Virus record (IMG/VR): IMGVR_UViG_2842363717_000002
Span: 14 to 64,013 of that record
Length of the DNA stretch: 64,000 nucleotides
From: a virus
Direction: 5' to 3' (one strand)
Part shown: positions 2,356-63,152 of the stretch, piece by piece
How positions within the stretch are numbered: position 1 is the first letter of the stretch
Layout: each line of letters opens with the position of its first letter
Program-made: the position numbers and the translations under genes
The notes under the pieces: model-generated
Told to the model about the DNA's origin: nothing
Databases searched by the model: none
The model's input: only the letters and a program-made list of their open reading frames with translations

Positions 2356-3061
2356 ACCGCCGCAGCGCCTCCTCCACCCTGCCGAACAGCATCTCCGGCG
2401 TGTTGTCGTTGGCGATGACGAGATCCTGATCGCCGCACCCGCGCTCAGATGCGTGCTCGCCGGCAATGCCGCCCCTGCCTTCGATCTTGAAGATGTCGCC
2501 GCCGAGCCGGCGGATGGCTTGGGCTTCATTCGGGAAGCGGCAGTCGTCACAGACGACGCGGCCAGCATCCGCGAACACCTGCTCGACGCGAGCGCGCCAC
2601 AGCCTGATCCAAAAGTCGTCGCCGATAAGGTTTCGACCAAGTTCGGTCCCCAGCACCTGCATCAGGTAGCGGGGCGTCTTGCCGCAAAGCATGTCGCAAG
2701 GCTCTTCCTTCAGGTCGCCTTCGATATGGCGCTCGGAAAGACCCATGGCGCGACAGGCGTCCTTCAGCGGGCCGGCGAACTTCACCAGCGTGTAGCCGTG
2801 GCGCTCGACGAGGTAACGCGTGGCGGTGGACTTGCCGCTACCTGCGACGCCAGTGAACGCGACGACAGGCGGCAGGTTATCGTTGGCGGGCGCATACTTG
2901 TCGAGAGAGCCGAATGTGGTGGTCACGAGCTCGCCGCCTAAGTCCACCTTCCCGATCGCGGCGCCGAGCGCGCGCAGCTCCTGCGGCACGTTATCGTTGG
3001 CATGCGGGACTGCCGTTAGATCGCCGGATTGCGTCCAGATTGGTGCTTGGTTCTCGGTCAT
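2348..3061 (-). CDS. deoxynucleoside monophosphate kinase (T4 gp1-like)
   Basis: P-loop VAFTGVAGSGKST, FAGPLKD, TPRYLMQVLGTELGR, DDCRFPNE; GGAGG RBS. Confidence 0.85.
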   Translation of the reverse strand: MTENQAPIWTQSGDLTAVPHANDNVPQELRALGAAIGKVDLGGELVTTTFGSLDKYAPANDNLPPVVAFTGVAGSGKSTATRYLVERHGYTLVKFAGPLKDACRAMGLSERHIEGDLKEEPCDMLCGKTPRYLMQVLGTELGRNLIGDDFWIRLWRARVEQVFADAGRVVCDDCRFPNEAQAIRRLGGDIFKIEGRGGIAGEHASERGCGDQDLVIANDNTPEMLFGRVEEALRRYG

Positions 3062-3363
3062 GCTTCCTCCTTGAATAGAATTTCTAATCTCTGGATTAGG
3101 TCGCTGGCGGTCGGATTGTCCGGCCAGAAGTATGGGTGCGGCGGATTCCGGATCGAGTCCATGGCGGCCGAAATTACCGCTTCGATGGCGGCGCGAGCAT
3201 GCGCCTCTTGTGATCGCCATCCAAGTCGATATCGTTTCCCGCGGTTGTCTTCGTGGTCGAATTGCTCCTCACCACTGAAGACATTGAACTGATGCAAGCA
3301 CTCCGGATTGACGCCCCTAGAAACACACATCGCCCGAGCCACCCGCTCAATCATCGAACTCAT
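3058..3363 (-). CDS. phage hypothetical protein
   Basis: ATGA-coupled ORF in operon. Confidence 0.7.
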   Translation of the reverse strand: MSSMIERVARAMCVSRGVNPECLHQFNVFSGEEQFDHEDNRGKRYRLGWRSQEAHARAAIEAVISAAMDSIRNPPHPYFWPDNPTASDLIQRLEILFKEEA

Positions 3364-3722
3364 ACCTTCTCCTCTTCTTTCACTGGCGCCTTCCGGCGCG
3401 GTTCACCTATCGACGGCGCCAATGGCTGGCCAGGCACCAGCAGCGCCCTCAGCGAGCCAAGACGGTCAGCGACAAGCGGCCGGAACCGGGTGGCGCGGAA
3501 TGGCTGATCGACATAGCCCCAGACTTGGCAGATGCCGCGGTCGATACCCTCGAGCCGGAGCCCGATATATTCTCCGTCGAGATAGTGGACGAACGGCCCG
3601 ACCCACCGGATTTTGTAAATGATGCCTTCCGTCAATTCGGAGGGCAGCGTGGTGTTGGCCGGCTGCTTGGCGTCGATGCAACCGACCTCTTGGCCGACGT
3701 AGAATTGGTGGATGTAGGTCAT
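3360..3722 (-). CDS. phage hypothetical protein
   Basis: ATGA-coupled ORF. Confidence 0.7.
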   Translation of the reverse strand: MTYIHQFYVGQEVGCIDAKQPANTTLPSELTEGIIYKIRWVGPFVHYLDGEYIGLRLEGIDRGICQVWGYVDQPFRATRFRPLVADRLGSLRALLVPGQPLAPSIGEPRRKAPVKEEEKV

Positions 3723-3946
3723 GCGGCCTCCTTCAAAGCCGCACGGCCAGCATCGGTGATTGCGAAGAACTGCCTGCTACCCGACCCGCCACGCGTCGCT
3801 GAGACTAGGCCAAGCGGCACGAGTTTCCTGAGAAGCGCGGCGGTGTTTTCGCCGAGATGGGCGGTCGCGAAGTTGCGATGGCTTGGGTAGTCATCGTGCC
3901 GCCGCGCTAACACGGAAAGGGCGTCACGTTGTCTGTGGGTTATCAT
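3719..3946 (-). CDS. small winged-helix-like hypothetical protein
   Basis: ATGA-coupled; ends FAITDAGRAALKEAA, a wHTH-like pattern. Confidence 0.6.
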   Translation of the reverse strand: MITHRQRDALSVLARRHDDYPSHRNFATAHLGENTAALLRKLVPLGLVSATRGGSGSRQFFAITDAGRAALKEAA

Positions 3947-4827
3947 GCCGCCCTCCTGGATCTACCCGTCAGTGCATCGAAAGTAGCCAAGAATTCGATC
4001 TCAGCCTTCTCTGGCGACCAGCACCGGATGTTGACGCCGAGCGGGTCGTTGTGCTTTGCCTGCCACTCCATCGGCGCAAGATTGGCGGCAATCTCGTCCG
4101 CAAGAATGCGGTTGTCCGCTTCGTGCACCTCGGCGGGGATATCCAGCGGCAAGCCGAAGCGAGGCGCAACAGCCTTCCGCCAGATGCCGTCTTCCGTCTC
4201 ACCGATGGTTGGCGCCCTGCCCTTCACCGGCCGCCCGACGTCTCCGAATCCGGATAGCGCCTCTGGTGCATCATGCAGAAGCCCGGCCAGCGCCACCTCT
4301 GGAGCGTAGCGTGCGGCAAGGTATCGGGCGATCAACGTGCTGTGTTCTGCCACGCTGAAGTGCTTGTCGCAGGCGCCGGAGTAGCGGCAGATGTTCGACA
4401 AGCCGTGAGCGATGCTCTCGATGAACACGTCTTCCGGCCTTGGATCGAACGGGAAGAACTTGCGCGCAGGGTAGACCTGGATGAACGGACCGCGCAGCAT
4501 CTCCTTGACGGCTGGCTGAAGCTCCGGCGGGATGTCGAATCCGCCTTTGCTGCTGTCCGCGATAACTGAACGACGCAGGCCGATATACTGGCCGCGGGGC
4601 GCAAGGCCGCCACTGGCCATTTCATGGGGAGCGGCGTGGACGATCGTGGTGGGCGGCGCGCTGCGCAACGAGCTGATGAGGTCTCCGACGGTGAAGCCAT
4701 CATATCCCCGGAATTCCGGCTGCGGAATGTTATCGTTCGCCGGCACATACTTCGGCGCCGGCATGGGCTGCGCGCCCATACCGGGAACCATGACCGGCTC
4801 GTTATACTGTTTTTGCGGAAAGGTCAT
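3943..4827 (-). CDS. HD-domain phosphohydrolase (5'-deoxynucleotidase-like)
   Basis: IAHGLSNICRY, HFSVAEHS, LLHDAPEA, VHEAD motifs. Confidence 0.85.
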   Translation of the reverse strand: MTFPQKQYNEPVMVPGMGAQPMPAPKYVPANDNIPQPEFRGYDGFTVGDLISSLRSAPPTTIVHAAPHEMASGGLAPRGQYIGLRRSVIADSSKGGFDIPPELQPAVKEMLRGPFIQVYPARKFFPFDPRPEDVFIESIAHGLSNICRYSGACDKHFSVAEHSTLIARYLAARYAPEVALAGLLHDAPEALSGFGDVGRPVKGRAPTIGETEDGIWRKAVAPRFGLPLDIPAEVHEADNRILADEIAANLAPMEWQAKHNDPLGVNIRCWSPEKAEIEFLATFDALTGRSRRAA

Positions 4828-5543
4828 GCCGGTCTCCTCATGTCTTCGATGTGCGGTCCTTTGATCTCAATCGTCGAGACCGGTCCGCCAGGCACGTCGT
4901 CATCGAAAACGCCGACAACCAATCTGCCGGTGTACCAAGCCAGCGTGTCGAAGTTGCTGCGGCCAGCAAATAGCATCGGGCCTTCCTCGTGCTGGTGGTG
5001 GCCATGCACGACATGCAGATCAACCCCGCCAAACGCGTAGCCATCTTCCGCACCATCCGGATAGAGCATCCATGTGTTCTTCTGCTCATCCTGCTGGTCG
5101 AGCGGAACGCCAGCCTCAACGCCGGCATGGACGAACAGGCGCTTGCCGTCGTTGTGCATGACCGGCAGATCACGCATCCACTCAATATGCTCGAGCGGCA
5201 CGCGCGCTGTCGCGGCGACGGCATCTTCTCCGGCCTTGGCGCCGTAAGACATGAGCGTCGCGCCGCCGCCGTTCGGAAGCCACCAATGGAGCATGCCTAG
5301 GCAACCGGCCATCATGATTTCTTCGTGGTTGCCGCGCAGGCAGATCCATTTCCAGCCGGGTGTCTGCGGCCCGTCCATGAGGGTTTCTATGATTTGCCGA
5401 CTGGCTGGGCCGCGATCGACGTAGTCACCGGTGAAGACGACCGTGCCGGCCGAGTGGTTTCCTTCTTCGATGCGGGCGATAGCCGCAACGAGCAGGTCGT
5501 GCCGGCCGTGCAGGTCGGCGATGCTGTAGGTTTTGGTCATCAA
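4824..5543 (-). CDS. metallophosphoesterase (lambda NinI-like Ser/Thr phosphatase)
   Basis: DLHG, GDYVDRG, GNHE, FVHAG, VHGH. Confidence 0.9.
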   Translation of the reverse strand: MMTKTYSIADLHGRHDLLVAAIARIEEGNHSAGTVVFTGDYVDRGPASRQIIETLMDGPQTPGWKWICLRGNHEEIMMAGCLGMLHWWLPNGGGATLMSYGAKAGEDAVAATARVPLEHIEWMRDLPVMHNDGKRLFVHAGVEAGVPLDQQDEQKNTWMLYPDGAEDGYAFGGVDLHVVHGHHQHEEGPMLFAGRSNFDTLAWYTGRLVVGVFDDDVPGGPVSTIEIKGPHIEDMRRPA

Positions 5544-5944
5544 AACGCCTTCCCGCCAGCTGCGCGCCGGTTCTCAATGCGGTGATCTTCGCGGCTGGCG
5601 TTGTAGGCCATCTTTTCGACGATCGCGCCGCCCAGGTCGTAACCGCGGTAAGCCGCAAAGTCGCCGACGCGGATCATGATGTCGGCAAGCTCCACCTCGG
5701 CCATCGGGCGATGCGGCAGCTTGTCGTCCATCAGCACCTTGCCGCCGGTGGACTTGCGCTCACCTTCCATCGCTTCCGCAACCTCGGAGACAATCAGCAT
5801 CAGCATTTCGCCGAGGTTCCGCGCCTTCTCGCGGCCGGTGGCGAGATCCGTGTACCAGCCGGCTTTGCGGCTTGCTGCGTGGCAGTCGGCGGCGAACAGG
5901 TTGATGGCGGATGCGTGGGAGTAGTTGTCGTTTGCCGCGATCAT
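5540..5944 (-). CDS. MazG-like nucleotide pyrophosphohydrolase
   Basis: LIVSEVAEAMEG...EVELADIMIR...EKMAYN. Confidence 0.8.
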   Translation of the reverse strand: MIAANDNYSHASAINLFAADCHAASRKAGWYTDLATGREKARNLGEMLMLIVSEVAEAMEGERKSTGGKVLMDDKLPHRPMAEVELADIMIRVGDFAAYRGYDLGGAIVEKMAYNASREDHRIENRRAAGGKAF

Positions 5945-6379: not shown

Positions 6380-6634
6380 TTAGGCTGCCGCTTTAAGGTA
6401 TGGTCTGGTAAAGTCACGCTCGACTGTCACGGTGGTAAATCCTCTTGCAATCAAAATCCCCTGGATGAAACCAAGCCATCTGTGCGCCTTGGTTTCATCC
6501 GAGAAAGTCTGCAACTCGCGCAACATCCACCGCAGGTGAGGAGGGCTTGTGCCTGGATCTGGCTGGCACTCGATATAGGCTGAGATGCGACGCAGCATTC
6601 CGTCGTATCGCGCGATAATGTCGTTGTGGATCAA
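6380..6634 (-). CDS. phage hypothetical protein
   Basis: Coupled ORF; KAHRWLGFIQG motif. Confidence 0.7.
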   Translation of the reverse strand: MIHNDIIARYDGMLRRISAYIECQPDPGTSPPHLRWMLRELQTFSDETKAHRWLGFIQGILIARGFTTVTVERDFTRPYLKAAA

Positions 6635-7884
6635 GCCACCCTCCTCTGCTCTGCCGGCGCGTTGTCGTTCGCAGCATCGAGCATGGCGACCCGCACGCGC
6701 GAGATCTCGCCATATGACCGGTGATAGGTGATCGTCTGCAACGAGCGGCCGGACAGGAAGCCTGACCCGAAATGCCAGGCATCTTGCGGGATCGGCGCCT
6801 GATGGGACTCCATGATCACGCCGCCGCCTTCGGTCGCGAATTTCGACTTGTGGTGGACGTGGAATCCGTGGGCATACCGGAACATCGACGCTCCCCAGTC
6901 CTCAGCCCTGCGGTGCGCCATGATTCCCGGCATGTCCTGCAGCTTCGCCTCGTGTCCGTGGGTGGCGGAAATCATCACCTTGCCGTAGCGGCGATGGAAG
7001 AACAAAGACTTGTCCAGATCGACGATAACGCGCGGCTCGTTGCGATACCAAGCGTGAAGGAACCAAGCGATTGCTGGAGCCGTCTCCTCGTCGTGGTTTC
7101 CTTTGAGATTGCGAACCTCCACTATGGCATTATTGCGAAGAGCCGCATCAATAGTCCGGACCAACAGGCGGCCGGCGGTCTCCGTGACCTTGGTGTGCCT
7201 GCCGTCGACGTCGAGAACGTTCTTGGATCTAGATGTCCGGTTCTCGTTGTTGTCGGCATGTGTCAGGTCGCCGCCGCCAAGCACGATTGCTACACCGCTA
7301 GCCGGGGAGCGCGCTATTGCTTCCTCGATACCACGACCGATAACGCGCTCCGCAATCTTCAGATCCCAATTCTCGTCGGTCTCTTGGCTCCATGCGAACA
7401 TCCCAACGTGCCAGTCATTGCAAGGTATGAGCGTGACTAGTTCGTCCTGAACGTTTTCGGGTGCTGGCGTTGGGATAGCGGCAGGCTCATAATCAGCGAA
7501 CGCAGCCTTGAGCGTTTCGGCAATGTCGATCGCCGACGGCTCAATCCGCGTCTTCACCCACTGCTGAATCGTCCGTCCATCGGCGTCGACCAACGCCGAA
7601 ACGCCCTTTATGGTGTGCCCGACAGGCATCTCCCATTCCGGCCCTCGCTCCGGCTTCTGCTGGATGAAATCGCCGTTCGGCGTGCTCGTCACCTGGCTGA
7701 TGCGGAACCCCGGCAGCACCGGCTTAGTGCCAAGCATGCCGCGCTCTGCGGCCGCTTTCAGCCTCGAGCAAAACGTGTTGCGCGGCAGGCGGAGCAATTC
7801 GGCCGCCTGCGACTTGTTGCCGAGCGCAATGAACGCGTCGGCGGCTTCCTTGGCGAGATCGTCTGGGAGTCTGGGCGTTGGCAT
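6631..7884 (-). CDS. N-terminal HTH plus calcineurin-like phosphoesterase
   Basis: NDWH, GGDLTHAD, GNHD, HGHE, HVHH; ends AANDNAPAEQRRVA. Confidence 0.75.
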   Translation of the reverse strand: MPTPRLPDDLAKEAADAFIALGNKSQAAELLRLPRNTFCSRLKAAAERGMLGTKPVLPGFRISQVTSTPNGDFIQQKPERGPEWEMPVGHTIKGVSALVDADGRTIQQWVKTRIEPSAIDIAETLKAAFADYEPAAIPTPAPENVQDELVTLIPCNDWHVGMFAWSQETDENWDLKIAERVIGRGIEEAIARSPASGVAIVLGGGDLTHADNNENRTSRSKNVLDVDGRHTKVTETAGRLLVRTIDAALRNNAIVEVRNLKGNHDEETAPAIAWFLHAWYRNEPRVIVDLDKSLFFHRRYGKVMISATHGHEAKLQDMPGIMAHRRAEDWGASMFRYAHGFHVHHKSKFATEGGGVIMESHQAPIPQDAWHFGSGFLSGRSLQTITYHRSYGEISRVRVAMLDAANDNAPAEQRRVA

Positions 7885-43666: not shown

Positions 43667-44031
43667 AACGGCGCATCCTTTAGCGCCTCACGCAACCGCG
43701 CCGCCGCGCCAGACCACGCCGCCTTCACGAGCATGCGTCTGTCGAGCTCGTCATAATCATCAAGCGCAACTCCCCATAGTCCGCGCTCCTCAATCCACTC
43801 GCCGACCGCCTCAACGCCACCATCCAGGGCGGCAAGCTCGTAGTCGTCGAGCCGGCGGATTTTCTTGTAGTCGTCGATCGCCACGATGCACCTCCGGCAA
43901 AGATATTGGGTGTCTCCCTTGGTGTGGTTGATGCCCAGCGCTACGGCGCGCATGCCGCAGCAAAAACACGTGGTGGGATCCCCGGCGGCGTCAACCGTCG
44001 GGGTGAAGGCGGTTTTGGGTATGGTGCTCAT
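43663..44031 (-). CDS. phage hypothetical protein
   Basis: CFCC..YLCRRC; coupled ORF. Confidence 0.7.
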   Translation of the reverse strand: MSTIPKTAFTPTVDAAGDPTTCFCCGMRAVALGINHTKGDTQYLCRRCIVAIDDYKKIRRLDDYELAALDGGVEAVGEWIEERGLWGVALDDYDELDRRMLVKAAWSGAAARLREALKDAPF

Positions 44032-50313: not shown

Positions 50314-50675
50314 CAGGCGACATCCTTCTGTTTGGACGCCCATGCAGCCTTCCAGTCCAAGCTCCACCGAGTGCGGGCCTCGCGCACCGCCGTAACGCGA
50401 GCCTTGGCTGCGGCCGCCTCGGCCTCGCCCCGATCAGTCAGGAAATAGATCACGGCGCCCTTGCCGAATCCGATGCCGCTTGATTTGACCCATCCAGCGC
50501 GCACGCATTTCTTCCATGGCGCGCGCAACCACCGATCGCCCGGCTCCATCCGGCCGCAGAAGGTGCCGTCGGTGCGAACGAAGCCCGCCATAATCTGGTC
50601 AATATACGGGCTGTCTTTCGGAAGCGGCCGGCCCACCAGCTCCTCTGACCACGTCAGTTTTTTCTTCGCCATCAT
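50313..50675 (-). CDS. phage hypothetical protein
   Basis: Coupled ORF. Confidence 0.65.
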   Translation of the reverse strand: MMAKKKLTWSEELVGRPLPKDSPYIDQIMAGFVRTDGTFCGRMEPGDRWLRAPWKKCVRAGWVKSSGIGFGKGAVIYFLTDRGEAEAAAAKARVTAVREARTRWSLDWKAAWASKQKDVA

Positions 50676-51199
50676 GCCGCCTCCCGCTTCGTCTTCCGCC
50701 GCAGCGCCGTCAGTTCCTTCTCCTCAATCTGGCGAACGCGTTCTGCGGTAACGCCCAGGTCGGCGGCGATCACCGGCAAGGTCTCGCCCATGGCGCGACG
50801 AATGACCACGTCACCACCGCGCTCGCTCATGGCGGCCAGTGTTTGAGTGAGCTCGACATGATCCATCTGTGTCGGCAATGTGCCGCGCATCGCCATCAGC
50901 CTGCCTTCCGGATCATCGACAATCGCCAGGCGCCGCCGGGTCGCATCGCGCCGCAGGCTCAAGACGCCGCGCATGCTCCAATACATCCAGTTGTAAAAAC
51001 CACCATCCTCGCGGTAGCCGCGCCAGTTGCGCAGGCAATAGATGATCGTGTCGGTGACCAGATCCTCTCGCTCCTCGGCGTTACGCGTCAACTTGCGCGC
51101 CAGAGCCTCGAGGCCACGCTTATATTGCATGATGCGCGCGTCGAACTCCGGCGGCCGGCCCTCGGGGTTGTCATTCGCTGCTGTGTACTGATTGCTCAT
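50672..51199 (-). CDS. ECF-sigma-like protein 1
   Basis: LARKLTRNAEEREDLVTDT..F.NW; C-terminal GETLPVIAADLGVTAERVRQIE. Confidence 0.7.
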   Translation of the reverse strand: MSNQYTAANDNPEGRPPEFDARIMQYKRGLEALARKLTRNAEEREDLVTDTIIYCLRNWRGYREDGGFYNWMYWSMRGVLSLRRDATRRRLAIVDDPEGRLMAMRGTLPTQMDHVELTQTLAAMSERGGDVVIRRAMGETLPVIAADLGVTAERVRQIEEKELTALRRKTKREAA

Positions 51200-51672
51200 G
51201 CTGCCACCTGCATCAGACGGCCGCGTGCCAATTCCCGGCGCTGGCGCATTGCCTCTCGAGAGATGCCGCGTTCTCGCCCCATGTCTGTTAGCGTGTCGCC
51301 CATGGCCTCGCGAATGACCGCCTCGCCGTCGGGGATGGTGGAAAGCAGCGACAACACCCGGGACAACGTCGCTGCGTCATCCTGGTTCTGGATGGCACCA
51401 ACGCGGTAAGCCGCAGTCTCAGGCACGGTGACGCCGCAGCGCATGGCCTGCCGAGATTTGCGGATGTGGTTGCTGGCCGCTCTGCGGAGGATGATCTGCG
51501 CCCAGGTGCGGAACGTGCCCATGCGGCAACGATCGGCAAGGTGGAGCATGTCTGTCAGTGCATCCTGCAGAAGGTCTTCTGCGCGTGGGCCGGCCATATA
51601 TTTGGCCTGGCGCTTGAGGGAGGGAAGATATGCGGTAAGGGCGGCGTCGAAGCCGGGTGGCCGATCGGTCAT
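51196..51672 (-). CDS. ECF-sigma-like protein 2
   Basis: YLPSLKRQAKY..AEDLLQD..FRTW; GDTLTDMGRERGISREAMRQ. Confidence 0.7.
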   Translation of the reverse strand: MTDRPPGFDAALTAYLPSLKRQAKYMAGPRAEDLLQDALTDMLHLADRCRMGTFRTWAQIILRRAASNHIRKSRQAMRCGVTVPETAAYRVGAIQNQDDAATLSRVLSLLSTIPDGEAVIREAMGDTLTDMGRERGISREAMRQRRELARGRLMQVAA

Positions 51673-51715: not shown

Positions 51716-52261
51716 TTAGTTGTCGTTTGCGGCGATCATATTTTTAGCACTGTCTCGTCGGTTGCGGCGTTGCTCCTGCCCAGTAGCCCACCTGCAGTTG
51801 CTTGGCTCGTAATTTCCATCGTTATTGATGCGATCCAGCGTTAATCCGTGCGGCCGCTCACCCATGTCCTCTAGAAAATTGTCGAACAGGAACCATCTCT
51901 CGCAAACGCGTATGCCCCTGCCACCATATCGCTCGTAGTGAAGTTGATTTGAGTTTGTGCATCTCTCAATCATTCCTCGCCACGAGTTATAGGTCTTTGA
52001 TGGCCCACCCTGTCTGCTCGCGTTCCCGTGCGTTGCATTAGCTGCCGTTGGTCCTGCCAGCATACATCCACAAGACTGAACGCCTCCATATCGAAGGTCG
52101 CTGGTGCTTCCGACGGTGGATCGTCCACATTCACAAATGCACAGCCATGTCTTTCGAGTGCCTTTCTTTCCTGCGTATTCAATAACAGTGAGGCGTCCGA
52201 AGACGTCCCCAACTAGGTTTGGGTATTCTCTAGCCATTGCTTGGGATCTCATCTTTTCCAT
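51716..52261 (-). CDS. HNH-type homing endonuclease
   Basis: GDVFGRLTVI, WLCICECG, TYNSW..MIERC, TLDRINND.NYEPSNCRWAT. Confidence 0.85.
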   Translation of the reverse strand: MEKMRSQAMAREYPNLVGDVFGRLTVIEYAGKKGTRKTWLCICECGRSTVGSTSDLRYGGVQSCGCMLAGPTAANATHGNASRQGGPSKTYNSWRGMIERCTNSNQLHYERYGGRGIRVCERWFLFDNFLEDMGERPHGLTLDRINNDGNYEPSNCRWATGQEQRRNRRDSAKNMIAANDN

Positions 52262-55039: not shown

Positions 55040-55666
55040 TTACTTCCGAGCGCCCCAAGGTTTCGACCCAGCCGGCTTTGCTGCCGCTGCGGCCGACGAT
55101 GCCTGGCGATTGTCATTTGCCGCGGGTGCGCGGTTGTCGTTGGCAGCAGCTGGCTCGTTGCGCTTCTTGCCCTGCGTGCCGTCGCCGATCACGCCGAGTT
55201 CCGGAACGGGCTCCTTGGCGCCTTCATGGGTGAAGAAGAACCGCTCAATCTGGTTCTTGTCCTTGTAGAAGGTGCCGTCCGGCTTTTTGTTGCCGATCTG
55301 GATGCCGATCTCGGCCGTGAACGACTTGAACAGCAGGTCATCCGTGTCGGTGTCGGCAGTGATTTCCTCGCCGACCGCATAGCCAAATCTGTCGAACATG
55401 GGCTTACCGTACTTGTAGGCACCGTGCTGGAAGCCGTCGGAGTGGACGATCGTCCAATAGGCCCAGAACTTGCGCTTGGCGAATTCGACGGGCTCGATCA
55501 CCTCGAAAGTGATTTCAGCCTGCCAGCCCTTCTTGTCCTGCGTTTCGGTGAGGTTGATCGCCTCGGCCTGGAGCTGCGCATACATGTGCGGCAGGATGCC
55601 ACCGCCGCCGCCCTGCTTCTCGGTGTTCTCGTAATCTGCTGCGTAGTTGTTGCCAATCTTGGCCAT
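55040..55666 (-). CDS. putative single-stranded DNA-binding protein (DUF669-like)
   Basis: Follows Sak4; OB-like core with tail ending KPWG; two ANDN copies. Confidence 0.65.
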   Translation of the reverse strand: MAKIGNNYAADYENTEKQGGGGGILPHMYAQLQAEAINLTETQDKKGWQAEITFEVIEPVEFAKRKFWAYWTIVHSDGFQHGAYKYGKPMFDRFGYAVGEEITADTDTDDLLFKSFTAEIGIQIGNKKPDGTFYKDKNQIERFFFTHEGAKEPVPELGVIGDGTQGKKRNEPAAANDNRAPAANDNRQASSAAAAAKPAGSKPWGARK

Positions 55667-57264: not shown

Positions 57265-58416
57265 TTAGGCGGCGGCGCCGTACGGATATTCGACGAAGTG
57301 CTCGACGACATCCTTCGACTGCTTGAGCGGCATGCCAGTTACGGCACGCAGTTCCTTGATGGCATCGATTTTCTTGCCCTTGGCGGCAAGTCGCTGCCAT
57401 TCGTGCTTGTAGGTCGGCGCCGCTTCCTGGCTGGTGGTGGTCAGGACATAGACGCCGAACTGCTGGCCCTTATGCTTACCGGCGAGGCGGCTGGCCTCTG
57501 CTTTGGCGGCCGATTCGGTGGCGTGCACAAACGGCCGGCTGGATGGCTTCGGCTGGCCGTCTTCGATGAGGGCGACGATGGCGGTGGGAGTCGGTGCGGC
57601 CGGCGCGGGAACGGCTTCCGAATGGTAGAAATAAAGCAGCCCAACAGGCGATTTCAATTCGAACCCATCGTCATCTGATTTTTCGACGCGATGGACCCCG
57701 CCGACCGGTAATTCATCTTCGTAATCGGTGTGAATGATTTTTACCCAGTCACCAGCCCTGAACTTGGCCGGCGCCGCGTTGTCGTTGCTTGCCGTGGTGG
57801 TTGGCTCGTCGATCCATTCGGCGACGATGTCGTTCGCAAGTTCCGTCGTTGTGTCATCCCGCGTGGACTGACGGCCTGTGTCTGTCCACACCGCAGACGA
57901 CCAATTTCCTTTCTCGCCGAACGTAGTAGTTGACCCAGTCACGAACGCCGGCCCGACCTTGCGGCCGTCGCGCGTCTTGTAGAACTTGCCGGCCTCGAGT
58001 GCGAAGACGGGAAGCGGTTCGAAGCAGTCGATCGTGGCGCGCGTAAGGTTGCGCGGCGAGGCCATCGTTTCGTAATTGACCGGCGGATCGATATTTAGGA
58101 GGTACTCGCCGTTGTCGACCAACTTCCCGGACCAGGAGCTGATTGTGGCCGTCTTGCCGATCGCGCCGGTGGTGGATCTTGCGTCTTTGACGAGCCGTAC
58201 GCGATCGCCGACCTTCGGCTGCCACGGCTGCCACGGCTGCTCGACGAGCTCGAATCGGTAGGCGCTCATGCCACCTTGGCTGCCGTAATCCATATCAACC
58301 GTGATGAACTCGCCATCGTACTGCCTCACGACATACTCATTGCCGGCAGTAACGCATTTGGTGTTGTCGTCGTTAACGCACTTAACCCGATCCCCAACCT
58401 TAAACTTTCCCATCAT
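57265..58416 (-). CDS. modular protein with SH3-like repeats and C-terminal ribosomal L7/L12-CTD-like domain
   Basis: KFKVGDRV x3-like repeats; GKKIDAIKELRAVTGMPLKQSKDVVE. Confidence 0.65.
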   Translation of the reverse strand: MMGKFKVGDRVKCVNDDNTKCVTAGNEYVVRQYDGEFITVDMDYGSQGGMSAYRFELVEQPWQPWQPKVGDRVRLVKDARSTTGAIGKTATISSWSGKLVDNGEYLLNIDPPVNYETMASPRNLTRATIDCFEPLPVFALEAGKFYKTRDGRKVGPAFVTGSTTTFGEKGNWSSAVWTDTGRQSTRDDTTTELANDIVAEWIDEPTTTASNDNAAPAKFRAGDWVKIIHTDYEDELPVGGVHRVEKSDDDGFELKSPVGLLYFYHSEAVPAPAAPTPTAIVALIEDGQPKPSSRPFVHATESAAKAEASRLAGKHKGQQFGVYVLTTTSQEAAPTYKHEWQRLAAKGKKIDAIKELRAVTGMPLKQSKDVVEHFVEYPYGAAA

Positions 58417-58703
58417 GCTGCTCCTCTCGTGGTGGTGGTTTTGCGGAGCTTGCGCTCCTTGGTGAAGTCGATGACGTTGTCGTCTTCGGCGCCCGAAATG
58501 GCTGCGGCGTCCGGCGGGGGGATTTCGTCGTCATCGACCGCCTGCAGTTCCCATTCGTGGAACTGCAGAACATCCAGCGTCGGGCTGACGCGAATAATAA
58601 CGATGCTCCCCATGAACCCGATGACGATACCGAAAACGTTGGTGTTCATCCTGTGCTCGACGACGTCGCCGATCTCAATGCAGTCGCAATCAGGGCAACT
58701 CAT
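58413..58703 (-). CDS. phage hypothetical protein
   Basis: Coupled ORF. Confidence 0.65.
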   Translation of the reverse strand: MSCPDCDCIEIGDVVEHRMNTNVFGIVIGFMGSIVIIRVSPTLDVLQFHEWELQAVDDDEIPPPDAAAISGAEDDNVIDFTKERKLRKTTTTRGAA

Positions 58704-59050
58704 GCCGCCACCTGCAGATCTGCCAGGCCGGCGATCAGAAGCTCGCGCTCGGACGGCGCGACTTCGGCGATGTCGAGCGTTGGAATGCGCTGCACCGATA
58801 CTGGCATGATGCCGCTCGTCGTCGAGCAGCCGCCGTTGGACGGCACCATCCTGGTGACGGCGCGCGGGTTGTTGTCGTTCGCCGCGGCGATCGGAGAGTT
58901 CTGGTAATGTCCGAGGCCGTACTCGCGCCGCAGGCGCTGGTAACAGGTCATCGGCTTGATGTTGTATCTGGCTGCTATGGCGGCAACGGTCTCGCCGTTA
59001 AGTCTGCGCGCATGCATATCGGCCAGCATAGCGCTGGTAATCATGGTCAT
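58700..59050 (-). CDS. HTH protein, first gene of the early leftward operon
   Basis: GETVAAIAARYNIKPMTCYQRL; AANDN. Confidence 0.65.
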   Translation of the reverse strand: MTMITSAMLADMHARRLNGETVAAIAARYNIKPMTCYQRLRREYGLGHYQNSPIAAANDNNPRAVTRMVPSNGGCSTTSGIMPVSVQRIPTLDIAEVAPSERELLIAGLADLQVAA

Positions 59051-59118
59051 GTCGTCTCCTCTGTGGTGGGATTGGCAGGCGGTGAACTTGCCAATTGATG
59101 GTCATAATGTTATCGATT

Positions 59119-59132
59119 TACAAATTTGTCAA
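59119..59132 (-). promoter_or_regulatory. TTGACAAATTTGTA motif (copy 7), main early promoter
   Basis: TTGACA-N17-CATTAT; between the early operon and the divergent repressor. Confidence 0.72.
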
Positions 59133-59147
59133 AGTATGGCGGCTATT

Positions 59148-59783
59148 ATGTCTTCACGCGGCACCCCCTCCAGAACGCGCTTCGCGCAGATGCTTGCGGC
59201 CGAGCAAATCAAGCGCGGCCAGACAGATCGCGAGGTGGCGGAAAACCATGGCTGGCTGCAGCAGACGTTCAGCCGGTGGAAGCTCGGAAGCCTGCCGCGG
59301 CAGCATATGTTCGCGTCGATCGCCAGCTTCCTGGAAACAGATGAGAACGCTGTGCGGGAGATGGTCGAGGAAGCGCAGGAAAGCGCCGCATCGACGAAGC
59401 TGCCAAACGTGGCCGCATTCAACGCTGCCCGGGTCTATGGTCGCGTGACCGACCGCAAGGACGGGAAGTATGTCTTTGACGCGTTCAACAAAGGCCGCAA
59501 GCGCATTCCTGACGGACGCTACGCCATCTTGATCGACACGAAAATCATGGAGCCGGCGCTGCCGGTCGGCACCAGGGCGTGGCTGGATCCGGCAATCTGG
59601 CCGTCGCCAGGCAATGAAGTGCTGGCCCACGCCAAGGGCGGAGCCGCGTGGATCGGCCGGCTCGTTGGTGTGTCCGGCACGTCCGCCGAGATCGAGCGCG
59701 GCGGATCGACGATGACGGTGCGTGATGTTGAAGGCGTGCATGTCATCGTCCTTTCCGAGCGCGTTGCGCGAATTAATGCTTGA
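59148..59783 (+). CDS. XRE/CI-like repressor with S24-like C-terminal domain
   Basis: QTDREVAENHGWLQQTFSRWKLG HTH; MEPAL..G..AWLDP. Confidence 0.75.
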   Translation: MSSRGTPSRTRFAQMLAAEQIKRGQTDREVAENHGWLQQTFSRWKLGSLPRQHMFASIASFLETDENAVREMVEEAQESAASTKLPNVAAFNAARVYGRVTDRKDGKYVFDAFNKGRKRIPDGRYAILIDTKIMEPALPVGTRAWLDPAIWPSPGNEVLAHAKGGAAWIGRLVGVSGTSAEIERGGSTMTVRDVEGVHVIVLSERVARINA

Positions 59784-60430: not shown

Positions 60431-61174
60431 ATGACGAAATTAACTGAGAAACTTCATAAGCAATCCAAGGCCGTGGGCGTTACCCAGGCGACGATCGCTC
60501 GCGAGCTGAATATCACACAACAGGCGGTCAACAACCTATTCAACGGGCGCGCGGCGTCCTCGATGTATTGGCGCGAGATCGCCGGCATGCTGCAGATCCC
60601 CGAAGACGAGATGCGCGAGCTGATGATAGACGCCGGCCGCGACCCAGAGAAGAACACCAAGCTGCCGACCGCGCCGCCGCATCGAACCGTTGATGCGGCG
60701 GCCGCCTTTCCTGAGGATGAACCAGTGTTAGCTAATGCCAAAGTCATTGATTTAGTTCCGGTAACGAGGCCCGGCAAGATGATTCCAGTGCTCGGTGAGG
60801 TCGTCGGCGGCGACGATGGCGAATACATCTTCAACGGCCAGGTCCAGGATTATGTCGCCTGCCCGCCATCACTGGTGAACGTTCCGAACGCCTATAGTGT
60901 CTATGTCGATGGCGAGTCGATGGCGCCACGGTATCGGCCTGGCGAAGTAGTATATGTGCACCCCGGCCGCCCTCCTCGGCGCGGTGATGATGTCATCGTG
61001 CAAATCCACGGCAAGGACGACAGCCAGCCGCCGCGCGGCTTCATCAAGGAATTCGTGGGCTGGGCCGGTGAGAAGCTTGTGTTGCAACAATACAATCCTC
61101 AGAAGCGAATCGAATTCAGCCGACAAGCAGTTGTGAGCATTCACCCGATCGTTTTGTCCGGAAAATACATTTGA
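60431..61174 (+). CDS. cI: CI-like repressor (HTH plus S24 autopeptidase)
   Basis: VTQATIARELNITQQAVNNLFNG; VGG cleavage-type site; GESMAPRY; FIKEF. Confidence 0.9.
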   Translation: MTKLTEKLHKQSKAVGVTQATIARELNITQQAVNNLFNGRAASSMYWREIAGMLQIPEDEMRELMIDAGRDPEKNTKLPTAPPHRTVDAAAAFPEDEPVLANAKVIDLVPVTRPGKMIPVLGEVVGGDDGEYIFNGQVQDYVACPPSLVNVPNAYSVYVDGESMAPRYRPGEVVYVHPGRPPRRGDDVIVQIHGKDDSQPPRGFIKEFVGWAGEKLVLQQYNPQKRIEFSRQAVVSIHPIVLSGKYI

Positions 61175-61591: not shown

Positions 61592-61625
61592 CCCACACCA
61601 CATCACGCTAGAGGAGACTGAAACA

Positions 61626-62309
61626 ATGAAATTCGACATTTTGAACAGATTCAGCGGAGAAGTGCAGGTCTCTGCCGAGATCGATTGCGACGCAAATGCC
61701 CTTCCGTCCGTGAAGCTTGGCCTCGCGGTCAAATGGGCGATCAAGGAAAAGGCCGACCTGTACGGCGCCGACCTGCGCAGCGCCGACCTGTACGGCGCCG
61801 ACCTGCGCAGCGCCGACCTGCGCAGCGCCGACCTGTACGGCGCCAACCTGCGCAGCGCCAACCTGTACGGCGCCGACCTGTACGGCGCCGACCTGCGCAG
61901 CGCCGACCTGTACGGCGCCGACCTGTACGGCGCCAACCTGCGCAGCGCCAACCTGTACGGCGCCGACCTGGGCGAGGCGAAAAACGCTGAGCTACCGATC
62001 GCGCAAACTCGCATCTTGCCGGAAGGCAGCATCATCGGATGGAAGAAGTGCCAGAAAGGCGTCATCGTCAAGTTGCGTATTCCCGAGGAAGCAAAACGGT
62101 CCCATGCATTCGGCCGCAAGTGCCGCGCTGAATTCGCCGATGTGATCGAAGTAATCGGCGGCAATGTCGGCATCAGCATGCACGATTACAGCACCGAGTA
62201 CCGCGCCGGCCAGCGCGTGCTGCCTGACAAATTTGACGAGAACTGGATGGAGGAATGCGCCGCAGGCATTCATTTCTTCATCACCCGCATAGAAGCCGAG
62301 AACTACTAA
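61626..62309 (+). CDS. pentapeptide-repeat protein with conserved C-terminal domain (DUF5758-like)
   Basis: 14 A[DN]L(YG/RS) repeats; GRKCRAE..CAAGIHFF. Confidence 0.88.
   Translation: MKFDILNRFSGEVQVSAEIDCDANALPSVKLGLAVKWAIKEKADLYGADLRSADLYGADLRSADLRSADLYGANLRSANLYGADLYGADLRSADLYGADLYGANLRSANLYGADLGEAKNAELPIAQTRILPEGSIIGWKKCQKGVIVKLRIPEEAKRSHAFGRKCRAEFADVIEVIGGNVGISMHDYSTEYRAGQRVLPDKFDENWMEECAAGIHFFITRIEAENY
61752..61970 (+). repeat. 15-bp tandem repeat array (14.6 units)
   Basis: GCC[GA]ACCTG followed by TACGGC or CGCAGC. Confidence 0.9.
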
Positions 62310-62416
62310 TTCAAATTGCCCGACGGGCAATGGGCGCGGTCGGTGATGATGGCTGCAACTTTCGTTTCCGTACCGCGCCCCAACCAATTCACCAACCACC
62401 ACAAAGGAGACCAAGC

Positions 62417-62689
62417 ATGACCACCAAGAGAAGACAGGCACCAGCCAACAGCAACCGCCTGCAGCCGACACGGCCAAGCAATTACGAGTTCATGCCTTAC
62501 ACCGGAACCGGCACTGAGGTCGTCGACGATCTCACCATTGGCGCGGCGCCCAGTTGGCGCCTGCTGCAAATCGCGCGCTGGCATGATGCAAAGCACGCCG
62601 GCCGCAACGGGCGGATAGCCAATACGCTGCGCCACGTGGCTGGGCGGCAGGATGATGCGAGGGCTGCGGCGCAGGCGGTGGCGGCATAA
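62417..62689 (+). CDS. phage hypothetical protein
   Basis: CCACCAC-AAAGGAGAC RBS. Confidence 0.6.
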   Translation: MTTKRRQAPANSNRLQPTRPSNYEFMPYTGTGTEVVDDLTIGAAPSWRLLQIARWHDAKHAGRNGRIANTLRHVAGRQDDARAAAQAVAA

Positions 62690-62907
62690 TGGCAAACACG
62701 GCATGGCGAAACGAAAAGCGAAGGCTGCGGGAGGCGGAGCGAGAAGCTGCCGAAGTGGCTGCCGCTGAGGAACGCAGCGACCGTCGCGAACATCTATGGA
62801 ACGTGCCCGAGCGCGCTCGGGACGCCTACATAGACATGGAAGACAGCTTCGGCCCTGAAACGGTGCTGGAATTCATGAAGGCAATGTATCCGGAGGCCGA
62901 GGCATGA
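62689..62907 (+). CDS. phage hypothetical protein
   Basis: Coupled ORF. Confidence 0.6.
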   Translation: MANTAWRNEKRRLREAEREAAEVAAAEERSDRREHLWNVPERARDAYIDMEDSFGPETVLEFMKAMYPEAEA

Positions 62908-63152
62908 CCCGCCAGCCAGCGAACGACAACCAGCCCCGCCTGATGGGAAGAAAGGATGCCGCAGCTTACTGCGGCATCGCCGAATCGACCTTCTCGCTTT
63001 GGGTGGCGACCCATAAGATGCCGCCGTGCATCCCTGGCACCCGCAAGTGGGACCGTCGGGCGATAGACGCTAAGCTTGACGAGATCAGCGGCCTCGGCGT
63101 CAATGACAACGAAGACCCTTATGAGAAGTGGATGCGTGAAAATGCGGGTTAA
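62904..63152 (+). CDS. xis: excisionase-like wHTH
   Basis: RLMGRKDAAAYCGIAESTF..WDRRAID; overlaps the integrase start. Confidence 0.75.
   Translation: MTRQPANDNQPRLMGRKDAAAYCGIAESTFSLWVATHKMPPCIPGTRKWDRRAIDAKLDEISGLGVNDNEDPYEKWMRENAG

What the first reader, a model, noticed from the sequence alone, without database searches (positions are those of the whole stretch)
2876..63110. ssrA-tag-like ANDN peptide dispersed through 15 unrelated prophage proteins
Seen: exact ANDN at 2876, 2990, 4729, 5924, 6661, 24734, 32614, 33444, 38184, 38991, 44052, 48616, 48640, 51167, 51719, 55109, 55133, 58871 and 62919 (19 copies), plus variants ENDN 40160, SNDN 57778 and VNDN 63099. It is usually preceded by A or P and sits in disordered termini or linkers. 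Codons vary freely (GCN, AAC/AAT, GAC/GAT), so selection is at the peptide level, not on a DNA repeat. A rough estimate with typical residue frequencies gives well under 1 chance occurrence in this proteome. Known: the Caulobacter tmRNA tag is AANDNFAEEFAVAA; its N-terminal part binds the adaptor SspB and the terminal AA binds ClpX. Inferred: the phage systematically wires its proteins, including recently acquired endonucleases, into the host SspB-ClpXP pathway, for timed turnover, clearance of leaky lytic proteins in the lysogen, or adaptor titration.
Basis: partly seen in the sequence, partly recalled or inferred. Interest (0 to 1): 0.9.

Follow-up and report, generated by a model that had tools for sequence, protein, structure and literature searches.

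The report
Phage proteins copy host degradation tag
A temperate Rhizobium phage related to phage 16-3 has written both ends of its host's tmRNA "destroy-me" tag (A-N-D-N at the start, Ala-Ala at the very end) into the floppy ends of about a third of its proteins. This probably hands their stability to the host SspB-ClpXP protease, but that has not been tested.

Summary
There are 20 in-frame ANDN (the 19 claimed plus 2402-2413) in 15 unrelated proteins, against 0.18 expected (Poisson P about 5e-34). No copy lies out of frame and codon use is neutral, so this is a peptide-level motif.

The window is a complete provirus of the phage 16-3 lineage.
- A host carrying a near-identical prophage has the tmRNA tag (A)ANDNYAEARLAA, an alpha-type sspB next to ssrA, and clpX.
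- In that 6-Mb host the DNA pattern occurs 34 times: 19 in the prophage, 1 in ssrA, and 14 elsewhere, which is chance level.
- The other half of the tag is enriched too: 19% of phage proteins end in Ala-Ala, against 4% in the host.
- C-terminal ANDN sits 11-13 residues from the end, which is the native tag length.
- ANDN is kept in orthologues of only 29-47% identity while the flanks drift.
- The Cro-like, excisionase-like, sigma, replication, methylase and homing-endonuclease proteins carry tag elements. The repressors and integrase do not.

Fourteen unrelated phages lack both features. These include virulent phages of Rhizobium and Brucella, plus lambda, Mu and D3. The motif is therefore lineage-specific, and no ANDEN-type counterpart was seen.

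Tag mimicry is well supported. SspB binding and degradation remain inferred, because the complex predictor was unavailable. The scan has noted this motif before on other DNA. I found no published description.

The parts
2348..3220 (-). dNMP kinase with three ANDN. 2990-3001 and 2876-2887 are in the N-terminal extension; 2402-2413 is inside the kinase domain.
   Evidence: Pfam DNMK and PHROG 139, domain 114-287. Sites.
3943..4827 (-). dNMP phosphatase. ANDN at 4729-4740 in the N-terminal extension (...YVPANDNIPQ...). The protein ends ...RRAA.
   Evidence: PHROG 318, domain 101-292. The motif is kept in the 47%-identical orthologue of RHph_TM3_3_14B.
5540..5944 (-). MazG-like pyrophosphatase starting MIAANDNY. 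ANDN at 5924-5935, residues 4-7.
   Evidence: PHROG 5658, domain 6-134.
6631..7884 (-). DNA repair exonuclease-like protein with the C-terminal tail AANDNAPAEQRRVA*. ANDN at 6661-6672.
   Evidence: PHROG 704, domain 27-400. The same tail is present in orthologues of 46% identity and in 16-3.
22301..24895 (-). Tape measure protein. ANDN at 24734-24745 (FKRANDNAAN). It lacks the A/P...x-P context and may not be a functional copy.
   Evidence: Pfam TMP_2. Conserved in NV1.1.1 and 16-3.
32587..33420 (-). GIY-YIG/NUMOD3/AP2 homing endonuclease inserted between the portal and prohead protease genes. It ends AANDNAEHKAIAA*, a full-length tag mimic. ANDN at 32614-32625.
   Evidence: Pfam. Portal and protease are adjacent, with no insert, in RHph_TM3_3_14B..
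33417..34694 (-). Portal protein ending PANDNNDSEAEAA*, a full-length tag mimic. ANDN at 33444-33455.
   Evidence: Pfam Phage_portal 57-378. The tail P-ANDN-x6-20-AA* is conserved in prophages of at least 8 Rhizobiales genera. Residues 401-425 have pLDDT 34-38 and no secondary structure.
38130..39152 (-). Unknown protein (PHROG 36072) with two conserved ANDN, at 38991-39002 and 38184-38195. The second sits in a conserved, probably helical stretch.
   Evidence: Both sites are conserved in three phages.
44028..45104 (-). N6/N4 DNA methyltransferase ending ...ADLFAAANDNVPATVAA*, a tag mimic one residue short. ANDN at 44052-44063.
   Evidence: Pfam N6_N4_Mtase 47-329.
48568..50367 (-). SF2 helicase with tandem ANDN in its tail (48640-48651 and 48616-48627), followed by an SSB-like tip ...DDDIPF*.
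   Evidence: Pfam ResIII and Helicase_C. The tandem motif is kept in orthologues of 39-47% identity.
50672..51199 (-). Sigma-70-like factor starting MSNQYTAANDNPE (ANDN at 51167-51178) and ending ...KREAA.
   Evidence: Pfam Sigma70_r2 from residue 23 and r4. There is a single possible start codon.
51716..52261 (-). HNH endonuclease ending ...MIAANDN*. ANDN at 51719-51730.
   Evidence: PHROG 374, domain 11-174. Its last 23 nt match the start of the MazG-like gene at 22 of 23 positions.
55040..55666 (-). PHROG 2300 protein, orthologue of the 'DUF669' gene of relatives, with tandem ANDN at 55133-55144 and 55109-55120 in an Ala/Pro-rich tail.
   Evidence: One ANDN is kept in orthologues of 29-30% identity.
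58700..59050 (-). Cro-like HTH protein, divergent from the repressor gene. ANDN at 58871-58882. Ends ...LQVAA.
   Evidence: HTH. The orthologue is annotated cro-like in RHph_TM3_3_14B. ANDN and the VAA end are kept at 35-45% identity.
62904..63152 (+). Excisionase-like HTH protein starting MTRQPANDNQP (ANDN at 62919-62930). It also carries the variant VNDN at 63099-63110.
   Evidence: Pfam HTH_17 and PHROG 66.
40160..40171 (-). Variant ENDN near the C-terminus of the protein at 40112-40660.
57778..57789 (-). Variant SNDN in the protein at 57265-58416, which ends AAA.
25662..26450 (-). Seg-like homing endonuclease ending ...EDAA. An Ala-Ala end without ANDN.
34694..36682 (-). Large terminase ending ...TKAA. 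An Ala-Ala end without ANDN.
   Evidence: The KAA end is also in RHph_TM3_3_14B.
45083..46492 (-). Unknown 469-aa protein ending ...GGAA.
46888..47616 (-). Unknown 242-aa protein ending ...KVAA. The VAA end is conserved in RHph_TM3_3_14B.
51196..51672 (-). 158-aa protein ending ...QVAA.
58413..58703 (-). 96-aa protein ending ...RGAA. The GAA end is conserved in orthologues of 36-39% identity.
58956..59783 (+). Contrast: S24/LexA-type repressor with no ANDN and no Ala-Ala end.
60431..61174 (+). Contrast: repressor C homologue with no ANDN and no Ala-Ala end.
63076..64000 (+). Contrast: tyrosine integrase, 380 aa on the full contig, ending ...QESKK. No ANDN and no Ala-Ala end.

Best explanation
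ANDN is a short linear peptide motif, with consensus [A/P]-A-N-D-N-x-P, that copies the N-terminal head of the host's tmRNA (ssrA) tag. Phages of the 16-3 lineage have placed it in flexible N- and C-terminal tails of many lytic-programme proteins: Cro-like, excisionase-like, sigma factor, nucleotide-metabolism and replication enzymes, methylase, homing endonucleases, and the portal. The same phages are also enriched for the other half of the tag, a C-terminal Ala-Ala, which is the ClpX-recognition element. In several proteins the two halves lie at the native spacing and form complete tag look-alikes.

The most likely mechanism is that the head docks on the host adaptor SspB (alpha type) and the Ala-Ala end is engaged by ClpX. 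These proteins would then become ClpXP substrates whose lifetime depends on host SspB-ClpXP capacity. That would clear lytic proteins when lysogeny is established and in lysogens, and would time turnover during lytic growth.

Shown here: the motif, its selection, its identity to the host tag, the spacing, the Ala-Ala enrichment, the host and phage controls, and tail flexibility. Inferred: SspB binding, degradation, and the biological purpose.
For: - 20 in-frame copies against 0.18 expected. It is the top tetrapeptide, with no out-of-frame copy and neutral codon use.
- The host tag is ANDNYAEARLAA or ANDNNAKEYALAA. The host has an SspB homologous to PDB 2NYS and Caulobacter 2QAS/2QAZ, encoded next to ssrA, and it has ClpX.
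- In a 6-Mb host, 19 of 34 pattern hits are in the prophage and 1 is in ssrA. Twelve other genomes of the family show only 9-28 scattered hits each. Sampled host proteins have 0 ANDN in 105k aa.
- Ala-Ala ends: phage 19%, relatives 20-32%, host 4.0% (Fisher P = 6e-5), and 0-3% in the nine virulent control phages.
- ANDN carriers are enriched for AA ends (OR 2.9, P = 2e-4). C-terminal ANDN peaks 11-13 residues from the end, which is the native tag length, and 16 of 19 such tails end in Ala.
- ANDN is retained in orthologues of 29-47% identity (motif identity 82% against 46% for flanks), and there are lineage-specific gains.
- The portal tail is conserved across at least 8 genera and is modelled as disordered.
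- Lytic regulators are marked while repressors and integrase are not.
- In Caulobacter, a C-terminal Ala-Ala is a typical ClpXP substrate signature and SspB speeds degradation of ssrA-tagged proteins (PMC4470285, PMC9393093).
- Genome-encoded ssrA-like tags on phage Int and Rep are an established precedent (PMC9635641).
Against: - There is no binding or degradation evidence of any kind.
- The phage consensus after ANDN (x-Pro) differs from the native tags (Y-A or N-A), and I could not retrieve the papers that define which tag residues alpha-type SspB reads.
- Many copies are N-terminal or more than 16 residues from the C-terminus, where a simple ssrA-like mechanism does not apply without a separate ClpX signal.
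- A degron on the portal, tape measure and terminase is counter-intuitive.
- Part of the Ala-end excess goes with GC-ATG-A start/stop overlaps.
- All ANDN-rich phages I examined belong to one mosaic lineage, so the link with a temperate life style is confounded with ancestry. PBC5 and the virulent phages of the same hosts do without the motif.
Confidence: 0.55

Rival explanations
1. Decoy or titration. The motif does mimic the tag and does bind SspB (and the Ala-Ala ends bind ClpX), but the selected effect is to saturate or occupy the host adaptor and protease during infection. That would stabilise particular phage or host proteins, or jam clearance of tmRNA-tagged products, rather than destabilise the carriers.
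For: There are many carriers, tandem copies in two abundant replication proteins (helicase and PHROG 2300), and N-terminal or internal copies with no C-terminal ClpX signal. The motif also sits on stable virion proteins, the portal and tape measure.
Against: The co-enrichment of C-terminal Ala-Ala at the native spacing is what a true substrate needs, not what a pure adaptor decoy needs. Key short-lived-type regulators (Cro-like, excisionase-like, sigma) are marked while the repressors are not.
Confidence: 0.15
2. A docking motif for another partner. ANDN-x-P would bind a phage-encoded or host hub protein unrelated to proteolysis, for example in replication-factory assembly or localisation, and the identity with the tag head would be coincidental.
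For: The tails that carry ANDN also carry other docking-type peptides: an SSB-like ...DDDIPF tip on the helicase and clamp-binding-like ...DLF or QLSLF next to ANDN on the methylases. The x-Pro preference is not a feature of the native tags.
Against: - Exact identity with the first 4-5 residues of the host tag, the native 11-13-residue distance to the C-terminus, and the independent enrichment of Ala-Ala ends would all have to be coincidences.
- The carriers include proteins with no common process, such as the portal, excisionase, sigma factor and homing endonucleases.
- The phage has no SspB-like gene.
Confidence: 0.12
3. Capsid targeting. The peptide would direct proteins into the procapsid for packaging and injection, as the T4 capsid-targeting sequences do.
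For: The portal and tape measure carry the motif, and many carriers are early-acting proteins that could be useful if injected.
Against: - There is no protease-site context.
- The motif occurs at either terminus and in tandem.
- The structural module is depleted of it: 3 copies in 8030 aa against 17 in 9224 aa.
- This reading does not explain the Ala-Ala ends or the identity with the tag.
Confidence: 0.03
4. A DNA- or RNA-level signal, a compositional artefact, or a relic of shared ancestry or duplication.
For: AAC-GAC-AAC is the commonest form. The HNH 3' end and the MazG-like 5' end share a 23-nt stretch, so one copy did arise by duplication.
Against: All 20 copies are in frame and none is in the other five frames. 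Codons are varied at genome-like frequencies, the carriers are unrelated, flanks diverge while the motif stays, and shuffles never exceed 4.
Confidence: 0.02

Closest known systems
Native tmRNA (ssrA) tag with the SspB adaptor and ClpXP, alphaproteobacterial version
   Same: The same first residues ((A)ANDN), the same C-terminal Ala-Ala, and the same overall length (12-13 residues) in the complete look-alikes. The host has the tag, an alpha-type SspB (homologous to PDB 2NYS, 2QAS, 2QAZ) and ClpX.
   Different: Here the tag is encoded in the gene, not added by trans-translation. The head is often used alone, at N-termini, in linkers or in tandem. The middle of the tag is not conserved, and position +2 prefers Pro.
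Integration-dependent immunity of mycobacteriophages (BPs, Brujita and cluster P types): genome-encoded C-terminal ssrA-like tags on Int and the viral form of Rep (PMC9635641, PMC4557955)
   Same: A temperate phage encodes ssrA-like degradation tags on its own proteins, so that host ClpXP-type proteolysis influences the lysis-lysogeny outcome.
   Different: That system tags two proteins (Int and Rep), with attP inside the repressor gene. Here Int and the repressors are untagged, and some 15-22 lytic-programme proteins carry tag elements, including a separate adaptor-binding head.
C-terminal Ala-Ala ClpXP degrons of Caulobacter cell-cycle proteins such as CtrA and NstA (PMC4470285)
   Same: A terminal Ala-Ala on native proteins of an alphaproteobacterial system, where mutation to Asp-Asp stabilises.
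   Different: Those are single host regulators that use other adaptors. The proteome-wide enrichment and the ANDN head are specific to the phage.
Classical protease-labile phage proteins (lambda O with ClpXP; lambda Xis and CII with Lon/FtsH; MuA and Mu repressor with ClpX). From general knowledge, not checked here.
   Same: Host AAA+ proteases set the lifetime of phage regulators and replication proteins.
   Different: Each of those uses its own idiosyncratic signal. They do not share one motif copied from the host's tag.

Membership tests
ssrA-tag-like bipartite ClpXP degron (SspB-binding head plus ClpX-binding C-terminus) | Head identical to the N-terminal residues of the host's own tmRNA tag | tested here: met
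   Host tags are ANDNYAEARLAA and ANDNNAKEYALAA. The phage has [A/P]ANDN 20 times.
ssrA-tag-like bipartite ClpXP degron (SspB-binding head plus ClpX-binding C-terminus) | C-terminal Ala-Ala carboxylate | tested here: met
   13 of 68 proteins end in AA, against 4% in the host and 0-3% in nine virulent control phages. 6 of the 15 ANDN carriers end in AA. This is partly confounded by ATGA overlaps but is still 2-3 times the controls in both classes.
ssrA-tag-like bipartite ClpXP degron (SspB-binding head plus ClpX-binding C-terminus) | Native spacing between the head and the C-terminus | tested here: met
   15 of 35 C-terminal instances in five phages lie 11-13 residues from the end, against 12-13 in the native tags. 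This is not met for the N-terminal, internal and more distant copies.
ssrA-tag-like bipartite ClpXP degron (SspB-binding head plus ClpX-binding C-terminus) | Located in an exposed, flexible segment | tested here: met
   The portal tail 401-425 has pLDDT 34-38 and is coil. Most motifs lie outside domain boundaries. Three or four copies look embedded.
ssrA-tag-like bipartite ClpXP degron (SspB-binding head plus ClpX-binding C-terminus) | Host encodes SspB and ClpX | tested here: met
   PF04386 hits in 3 of 3 host genomes, next to ssrA. ClpX scores 667 bits.
ssrA-tag-like bipartite ClpXP degron (SspB-binding head plus ClpX-binding C-terminus) | Physical binding of the head to SspB | not testable with these tools
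No experiment was possible.
ssrA-tag-like bipartite ClpXP degron (SspB-binding head plus ClpX-binding C-terminus) | SspB- and ClpXP-dependent degradation | not testable with these tools
   Needs half-life measurements.
tmRNA-added tag (product of trans-translation) | Tag added co-translationally from tmRNA, not encoded in the gene | tested here: not met
   The motif is encoded in frame in the phage ORFs, ahead of ordinary stop codons. No tmRNA gene is present in the window.
Integration-dependent immunity (mycobacteriophage type) | ssrA-like tags on Int and on the virally encoded repressor, removed from the repressor by integration | tested here: not met
   The integrase ends ...QESKK, and both repressors lack ANDN and AA ends.
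Phage-encoded SspB-like adaptor | An SspB (PF04386) homologue in the phage | tested here: not met
   No match at E <= 0.1 in the complete provirus.

The most novel reading that the evidence does not exclude
16-3-like temperate phages use a proteome-wide split degron code: an adaptor-binding head (ANDN) placed anywhere flexible, plus a C-terminal Ala-Ala. This code would tie their whole lytic programme (Cro, excisionase, late sigma factor, replication and nucleotide enzymes, methylases, selfish endonucleases, unassembled portal) to the host's SspB-ClpXP capacity. The load on the host's ribosome-rescue and proteolysis system would then help set the lysis-lysogeny decision and erase lytic proteins once repression is established. 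At high expression the same tags would compete with genuine tmRNA-tagged proteins.
Probability: 0.3. Interest if true: 0.9.

Novelty: new variant of a known kind. Interest (0 to 1): 0.75.

Why it matters
Host-protease control of single phage regulators is classical, and ssrA-like tags on two mycobacteriophage proteins are known. A single host-derived degron written into a third of a phage proteome, with the adaptor-binding and protease-binding halves used separately, would be a new scale and logic of host-phage coupling.

It would make a concrete question testable: does host proteolytic capacity gate the whole lytic programme of a temperate phage? It would also give alphaproteobacterial biology a natural set of SspB and ClpXP substrates and portable degrons.

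The signature is present in phage 16-3 itself, a long-standing genetic model of Sinorhizobium meliloti, so the experiments are straightforward. Dense in-frame ANDN is also a cheap marker for this class of prophage in Rhizobiales genomes: 19 of the 34 hits in a 6-Mb genome fell in one prophage.

Tried and rejected
There is no verdict, and I attempted no work-around.
- The primary papers on alpha-type SspB specificity (Chien 2007, Lessner 2007, Chowdhury 2010, and reviews) are not held. The residues SspB-alpha reads could therefore not be compared with the phage consensus.
- A DNA-level repeat was rejected because of frame-locking and varied codons.
- ATGA start/stop overlap as the cause of the Ala ends was examined. 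It explains the GCA codon bias and part of the excess. In the 16-3-like phages, Ala ends are 58% in overlap-type ends and 27% in other ends, against 20% and 13% in controls.
- 'Phages track their host's tag' was tested and not supported. There is no ANDE or ANDD enrichment in phages of E. coli, Pseudomonas, Vibrio, Burkholderia or Xanthomonas.
- 'All phages of alphaproteobacteria have it' was rejected.
- Small hit clusters in another Rhizobiaceae genome turned out to be PAS-domain repeats and a tape-measure-like gene, not another ANDN island.
- The other enriched tetrapeptides in the window (LYGA, ADLY) come from one pentapeptide-repeat protein at 61572-62309.
- The alternative portal tail motif NGGPPLD is not proteome-wide in the loci I hold.

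Full report
**1. Observation**

A six-frame search finds ANDN 20 times: the 19 claimed sites plus 2402-2413. The degenerate DNA pattern GCN-AAY-GAY-AAY also occurs exactly 20 times (19 on the - strand, 1 on the + strand), so every DNA match is read as ANDN in frame and none falls in another frame. All copies lie in 15 plausible genes.

With the window's own amino-acid composition, 0.18 copies are expected (Poisson P = 4.7e-34). In 5000 within-protein shuffles the mean was 0.18 and the maximum 4. ANDN is the most over-represented tetrapeptide by more than 20 orders of magnitude, and 20 of 24 NDN are preceded by Ala. Codon choice inside the motif resembles genome-wide usage.

**2. What the window is**

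The record is a 64,231-bp, 100%-complete provirus. It has an integrase, an excisionase-like gene, two repressors, a Cro-like gene, tRNA-Met and tRNA-Pro. Forty-one of 75 proteins of the classical S. meliloti temperate phage 16-3 have homologues here, at a median 57% identity. A prophage whose portal is 95% identical sits in Rhizobium esperanzae SEMIA 4089.

The 15 carriers are functionally unrelated:
- dNMP kinase, dNMP phosphatase and a MazG-like pyrophosphatase
- a repair exonuclease-like protein
- the tape measure and the portal
- a GIY-YIG and an HNH homing endonuclease
- a DNA methylase and an SF2 helicase
- a sigma factor
- a PHROG 2300 protein and a PHROG 36072 protein
- a Cro-like HTH protein and an excisionase-like protein

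**3. Anatomy of the motif**

Fourteen of 20 copies are within 30 residues of a terminus (P = 1.5e-5). The structural module holds 3 copies in 8030 aa, and the rest of the genome holds 17 in 9224 aa. Most copies lie outside the recognised domains. Over 51 instances in three phages the consensus is [A/P]-A-N-D-N-x-P. Position -1 is A or P in 84%, and position +2 is Pro in 41% against a 4.9% background.

Three proteins end in complete tag look-alikes of native or near-native length:
- GIY-YIG endonuclease: AANDNAEHKAIAA*
- portal: PANDNNDSEAEAA*
- methylase: AANDNVPATVAA*

Others start with the motif: MIAANDNY, MSNQYTAANDNPE and MTRQPANDNQP. An AlphaFold2 model of the portal, built on a 40-sequence alignment, has a confident core, but residues 401-425 have pLDDT 34-38 and no secondary structure.

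**4. The host side**

In genomes carrying related prophages, ARAGORN reads the tmRNA tags as ANDNYAEARLAA (Rhizobium, Ensifer) and ANDNNAKEYALAA (Agrobacterium). An alpha-type sspB lies directly beside ssrA. It is homologous to the Agrobacterium structure 2NYS and to Caulobacter SspB-alpha 2QAS/2QAZ. ClpX is present. The phage has no SspB-like gene.

In the 6.0-Mb R. esperanzae genome the DNA pattern occurs 34 times. Nineteen hits are within the roughly 61-kb prophage, one is in the tag-coding part of ssrA, and 14 are elsewhere. Those 14 resolve to about ten in-frame, mid-protein ANDN without the A/P...x-P context, which matches the compositional expectation of about 9.6. In 380 kb of host chromosome analysed with the same crude gene caller, ANDN occurs 0 times in 104,936 aa. 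Twelve further genomes of the host's family have 9-28 scattered hits each. Density in the phage is about 130 times that of the host.

**5. The second half of the tag**

Thirteen of 68 phage proteins (19%) end in Ala-Ala and 40% end in Ala. The host figures are 4.0% and 15.5% (Fisher P = 6e-5 and 2e-5). The relatives have 20-32% Ala-Ala ends.

Pooling five 16-3-like phages gives three results:
- ANDN carriers are enriched for Ala-Ala ends (OR 2.9, P = 2e-4).
- The distance from the A of ANDN to the C-terminus peaks at 11-13 residues (15 of 35 C-terminal instances), which is the native tag length.
- 16 of the 19 instances within 16 residues of the end finish in Ala.

There is a confound. Many Ala ends use GCA within GC-ATG-A start/stop overlaps. 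However, overlap-type ends are Ala in 58% of 16-3-like genes against 20% in controls, and other ends in 27% against 13%. The overlap therefore explains the codon choice and part of the excess, but not the effect.

In Caulobacter, a C-terminal Ala-Ala is described as a typical ClpXP substrate signature, and Asp-Asp substitution stabilises (PMC4470285). Deleting sspB slows degradation of an ssrA-tagged protein (PMC9393093).

**6. Selection**

In orthologues sharing only 29-47% identity, ANDN is kept at the equivalent place while the flanks drift. This holds for the helicase tail, the PHROG 2300 tail, the exonuclease tail, the methylase tail, the Cro-like protein and the dNMP phosphatase. Over 22 site comparisons, motif identity is 82% against 46% for the +/-12-residue flanks. 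The mismatches are sites with no homologous counterpart.

There are also lineage-specific gains. The RecB-like exonuclease of NV1.1.1 has the motif although its window orthologue is 77% identical and lacks it. The clamp and the VRR-NUC nuclease of RHph_TM3_3_14B have also gained it.

The portal tail P-ANDN-x6-20-AA* is conserved in prophages of Rhizobium, Agrobacterium, Shinella, Mesorhizobium, Brucella/Ochrobactrum, Ensifer, Pseudohoeflea and Bradyrhizobium, with a freely varying spacer.

**7. Distribution**

Dense ANDN with many Ala-Ala ends is found in the window and in RHph_X2_25, RHph_TM3_3_14B, NV1.1.1 and 16-3.

Nine virulent phages share the helicase: PaMx25, BRET, KL1, Vibrio R31B, Xanthomonas DoCa8, Rhizobium RHEph04, Sphingomonas MMDA13, Rhodobacter RcSpartan and Brucella Tb. 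In these, ANDN is 0 in called proteins, AND is at chance level, and Ala-Ala ends are 0-3%.

The temperate phages lambda, Mu and D3 have no ANDN and no ANDE or ANDD. The unrelated S. meliloti phage PBC5 has no ANDN.

The feature is therefore not a general property of phages of alphaproteobacteria, and I found no counterpart in phages of other hosts. Because all positive phages belong to one mosaic lineage, the apparent link with a temperate life style is confounded with ancestry.

**8. Which regulators are marked**

The Cro-like protein has both ANDN and a VAA end, conserved in four phages. The excisionase-like protein has ANDN at residues 6-9. The sigma factor has ANDN at residues 8-11 and ends EAA. 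The two repressors and the integrase (...QESKK) have neither element. This pattern is what one would expect if lytic-programme proteins are meant to be short-lived and lysogeny-maintenance proteins stable. That reading is an inference.

**9. Interpretation**

Mimicry of the host tag rests on four independent coincidences that chance or another function would have to explain:
- identity of the head with the host tag
- enrichment of the Ala-Ala end
- native spacing between the two
- absence of the motif from host proteins

I put tag mimicry at about 0.85. I put the specific mechanism, SspB docking with ClpXP degradation of the carriers, at about 0.55. The rivals are titration of the adaptor or protease (0.15), an unrelated docking partner (0.12), capsid targeting (0.03) and a nucleic-acid-level signal or artefact (0.02).

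Several weaknesses remain:
- There are no binding data.
- The x-Pro preference is not a feature of the native tags.
- Many copies are far from a C-terminus.
- The portal, terminase and tape measure carry tag elements. For the portal, a C-terminal tail that becomes buried on assembly could mark only unassembled subunits, but that is speculation.

**10. Novelty**

Searches of the held literature found no description of ANDN in phages. The nearest precedent is integration-dependent immunity in mycobacteriophages, where Int and the viral repressor carry encoded ssrA-like tags (PMC9635641, PMC4557955). That system's defining features are not met here.

Earlier notes of this scan report the same motif in at least seven other genomes. 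They are unchecked AI notes and I did not use them as evidence. My own results on this window and on four relatives agree with them. My control phages do not support the wider claim that the motif occurs in many unrelated phages.

Noticed in passing
L004, L028, L034, L050, L051, L054, L056, L062: portal C-termini (for example L004:7144 onwards): In Rhizobiales prophages whose portals lack ANDN, the same C-terminal position carries another conserved peptide, IG[HD]NGGPPLD, followed by an acidic stretch and often a terminal Ala-Ala. This looks like an alternative short motif swapped into the same tail. There is only one copy per roughly 21-kb locus.
   Followed up: partly
window 48568-48590 (-), the helicase C-terminus: The SF2 helicase ends ...ELDDDIPF, resembling the acidic C-terminal tip of bacterial SSB. 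Orthologues end ...DDEVPF or ...EDDVPF, so the tip is conserved just downstream of the tandem ANDN.
   Followed up: partly
window 44052-44090 (-); L001 about 36794-36841 and 35964-36002: The methylase tails carry sliding-clamp-binding-like peptides next to ANDN: ...ADLFAAANDN... in the window, and ...ANDNSPQLSLFGDAA* and ...ASLFAANDN... in RHph_TM3_3_14B. These phages encode their own beta-clamp (window 53459-54517).
   Followed up: no
window 51719-51741 (-) and 5922-5944 (-): The last 23 nt of the HNH endonuclease ORF (ATGATCGCCGCAAACGACAACTA) match the first 23 nt of the MazG-like gene at 22 of 23 positions. The HNH gene's ...MIAANDN* end therefore looks like a captured copy of that gene's start, perhaps a homing scar.
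   Followed up: partly
window 32587-33420 (-): A GIY-YIG/NUMOD3/AP2 homing endonuclease sits between the portal and prohead protease genes. In RHph_TM3_3_14B those two genes are adjacent, so this is a recent insertion, and it already carries a full tag look-alike.
   Followed up: partly
L083 and L087 (G001:C2:379585-380549); L082 and L085 (G003:C10): In the host genomes, sspB lies immediately next to the tmRNA gene ssrA on the same strand.
   Followed up: no
Records W01, W03, W04, W05 (PaMx25, KL1, Vibrio R31B, Xanthomonas DoCa8): The virulent phages that share the helicase have their own strongly over-represented Gln/Pro peptides instead: QQAP/APQQ, QQPQ/QPQQ and QQQQ, at 6-24 copies. I did not examine where they lie.
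   Followed up: no
window 61572-62309 (+): A pentapeptide-repeat protein (ADLYG/ADLRS repeats) in the lysogeny-side module accounts for the other enriched tetrapeptides (LYGA, ADLY, DLYG).
   Followed up: yes
Record W15 (Sinorhizobium phage PBC5): PBC5 has no ANDN, but 16% of its called proteins end in Ala-Ala. The C-terminal half of the signature may therefore occur without the head in other rhizobiophages.
   Followed up: no
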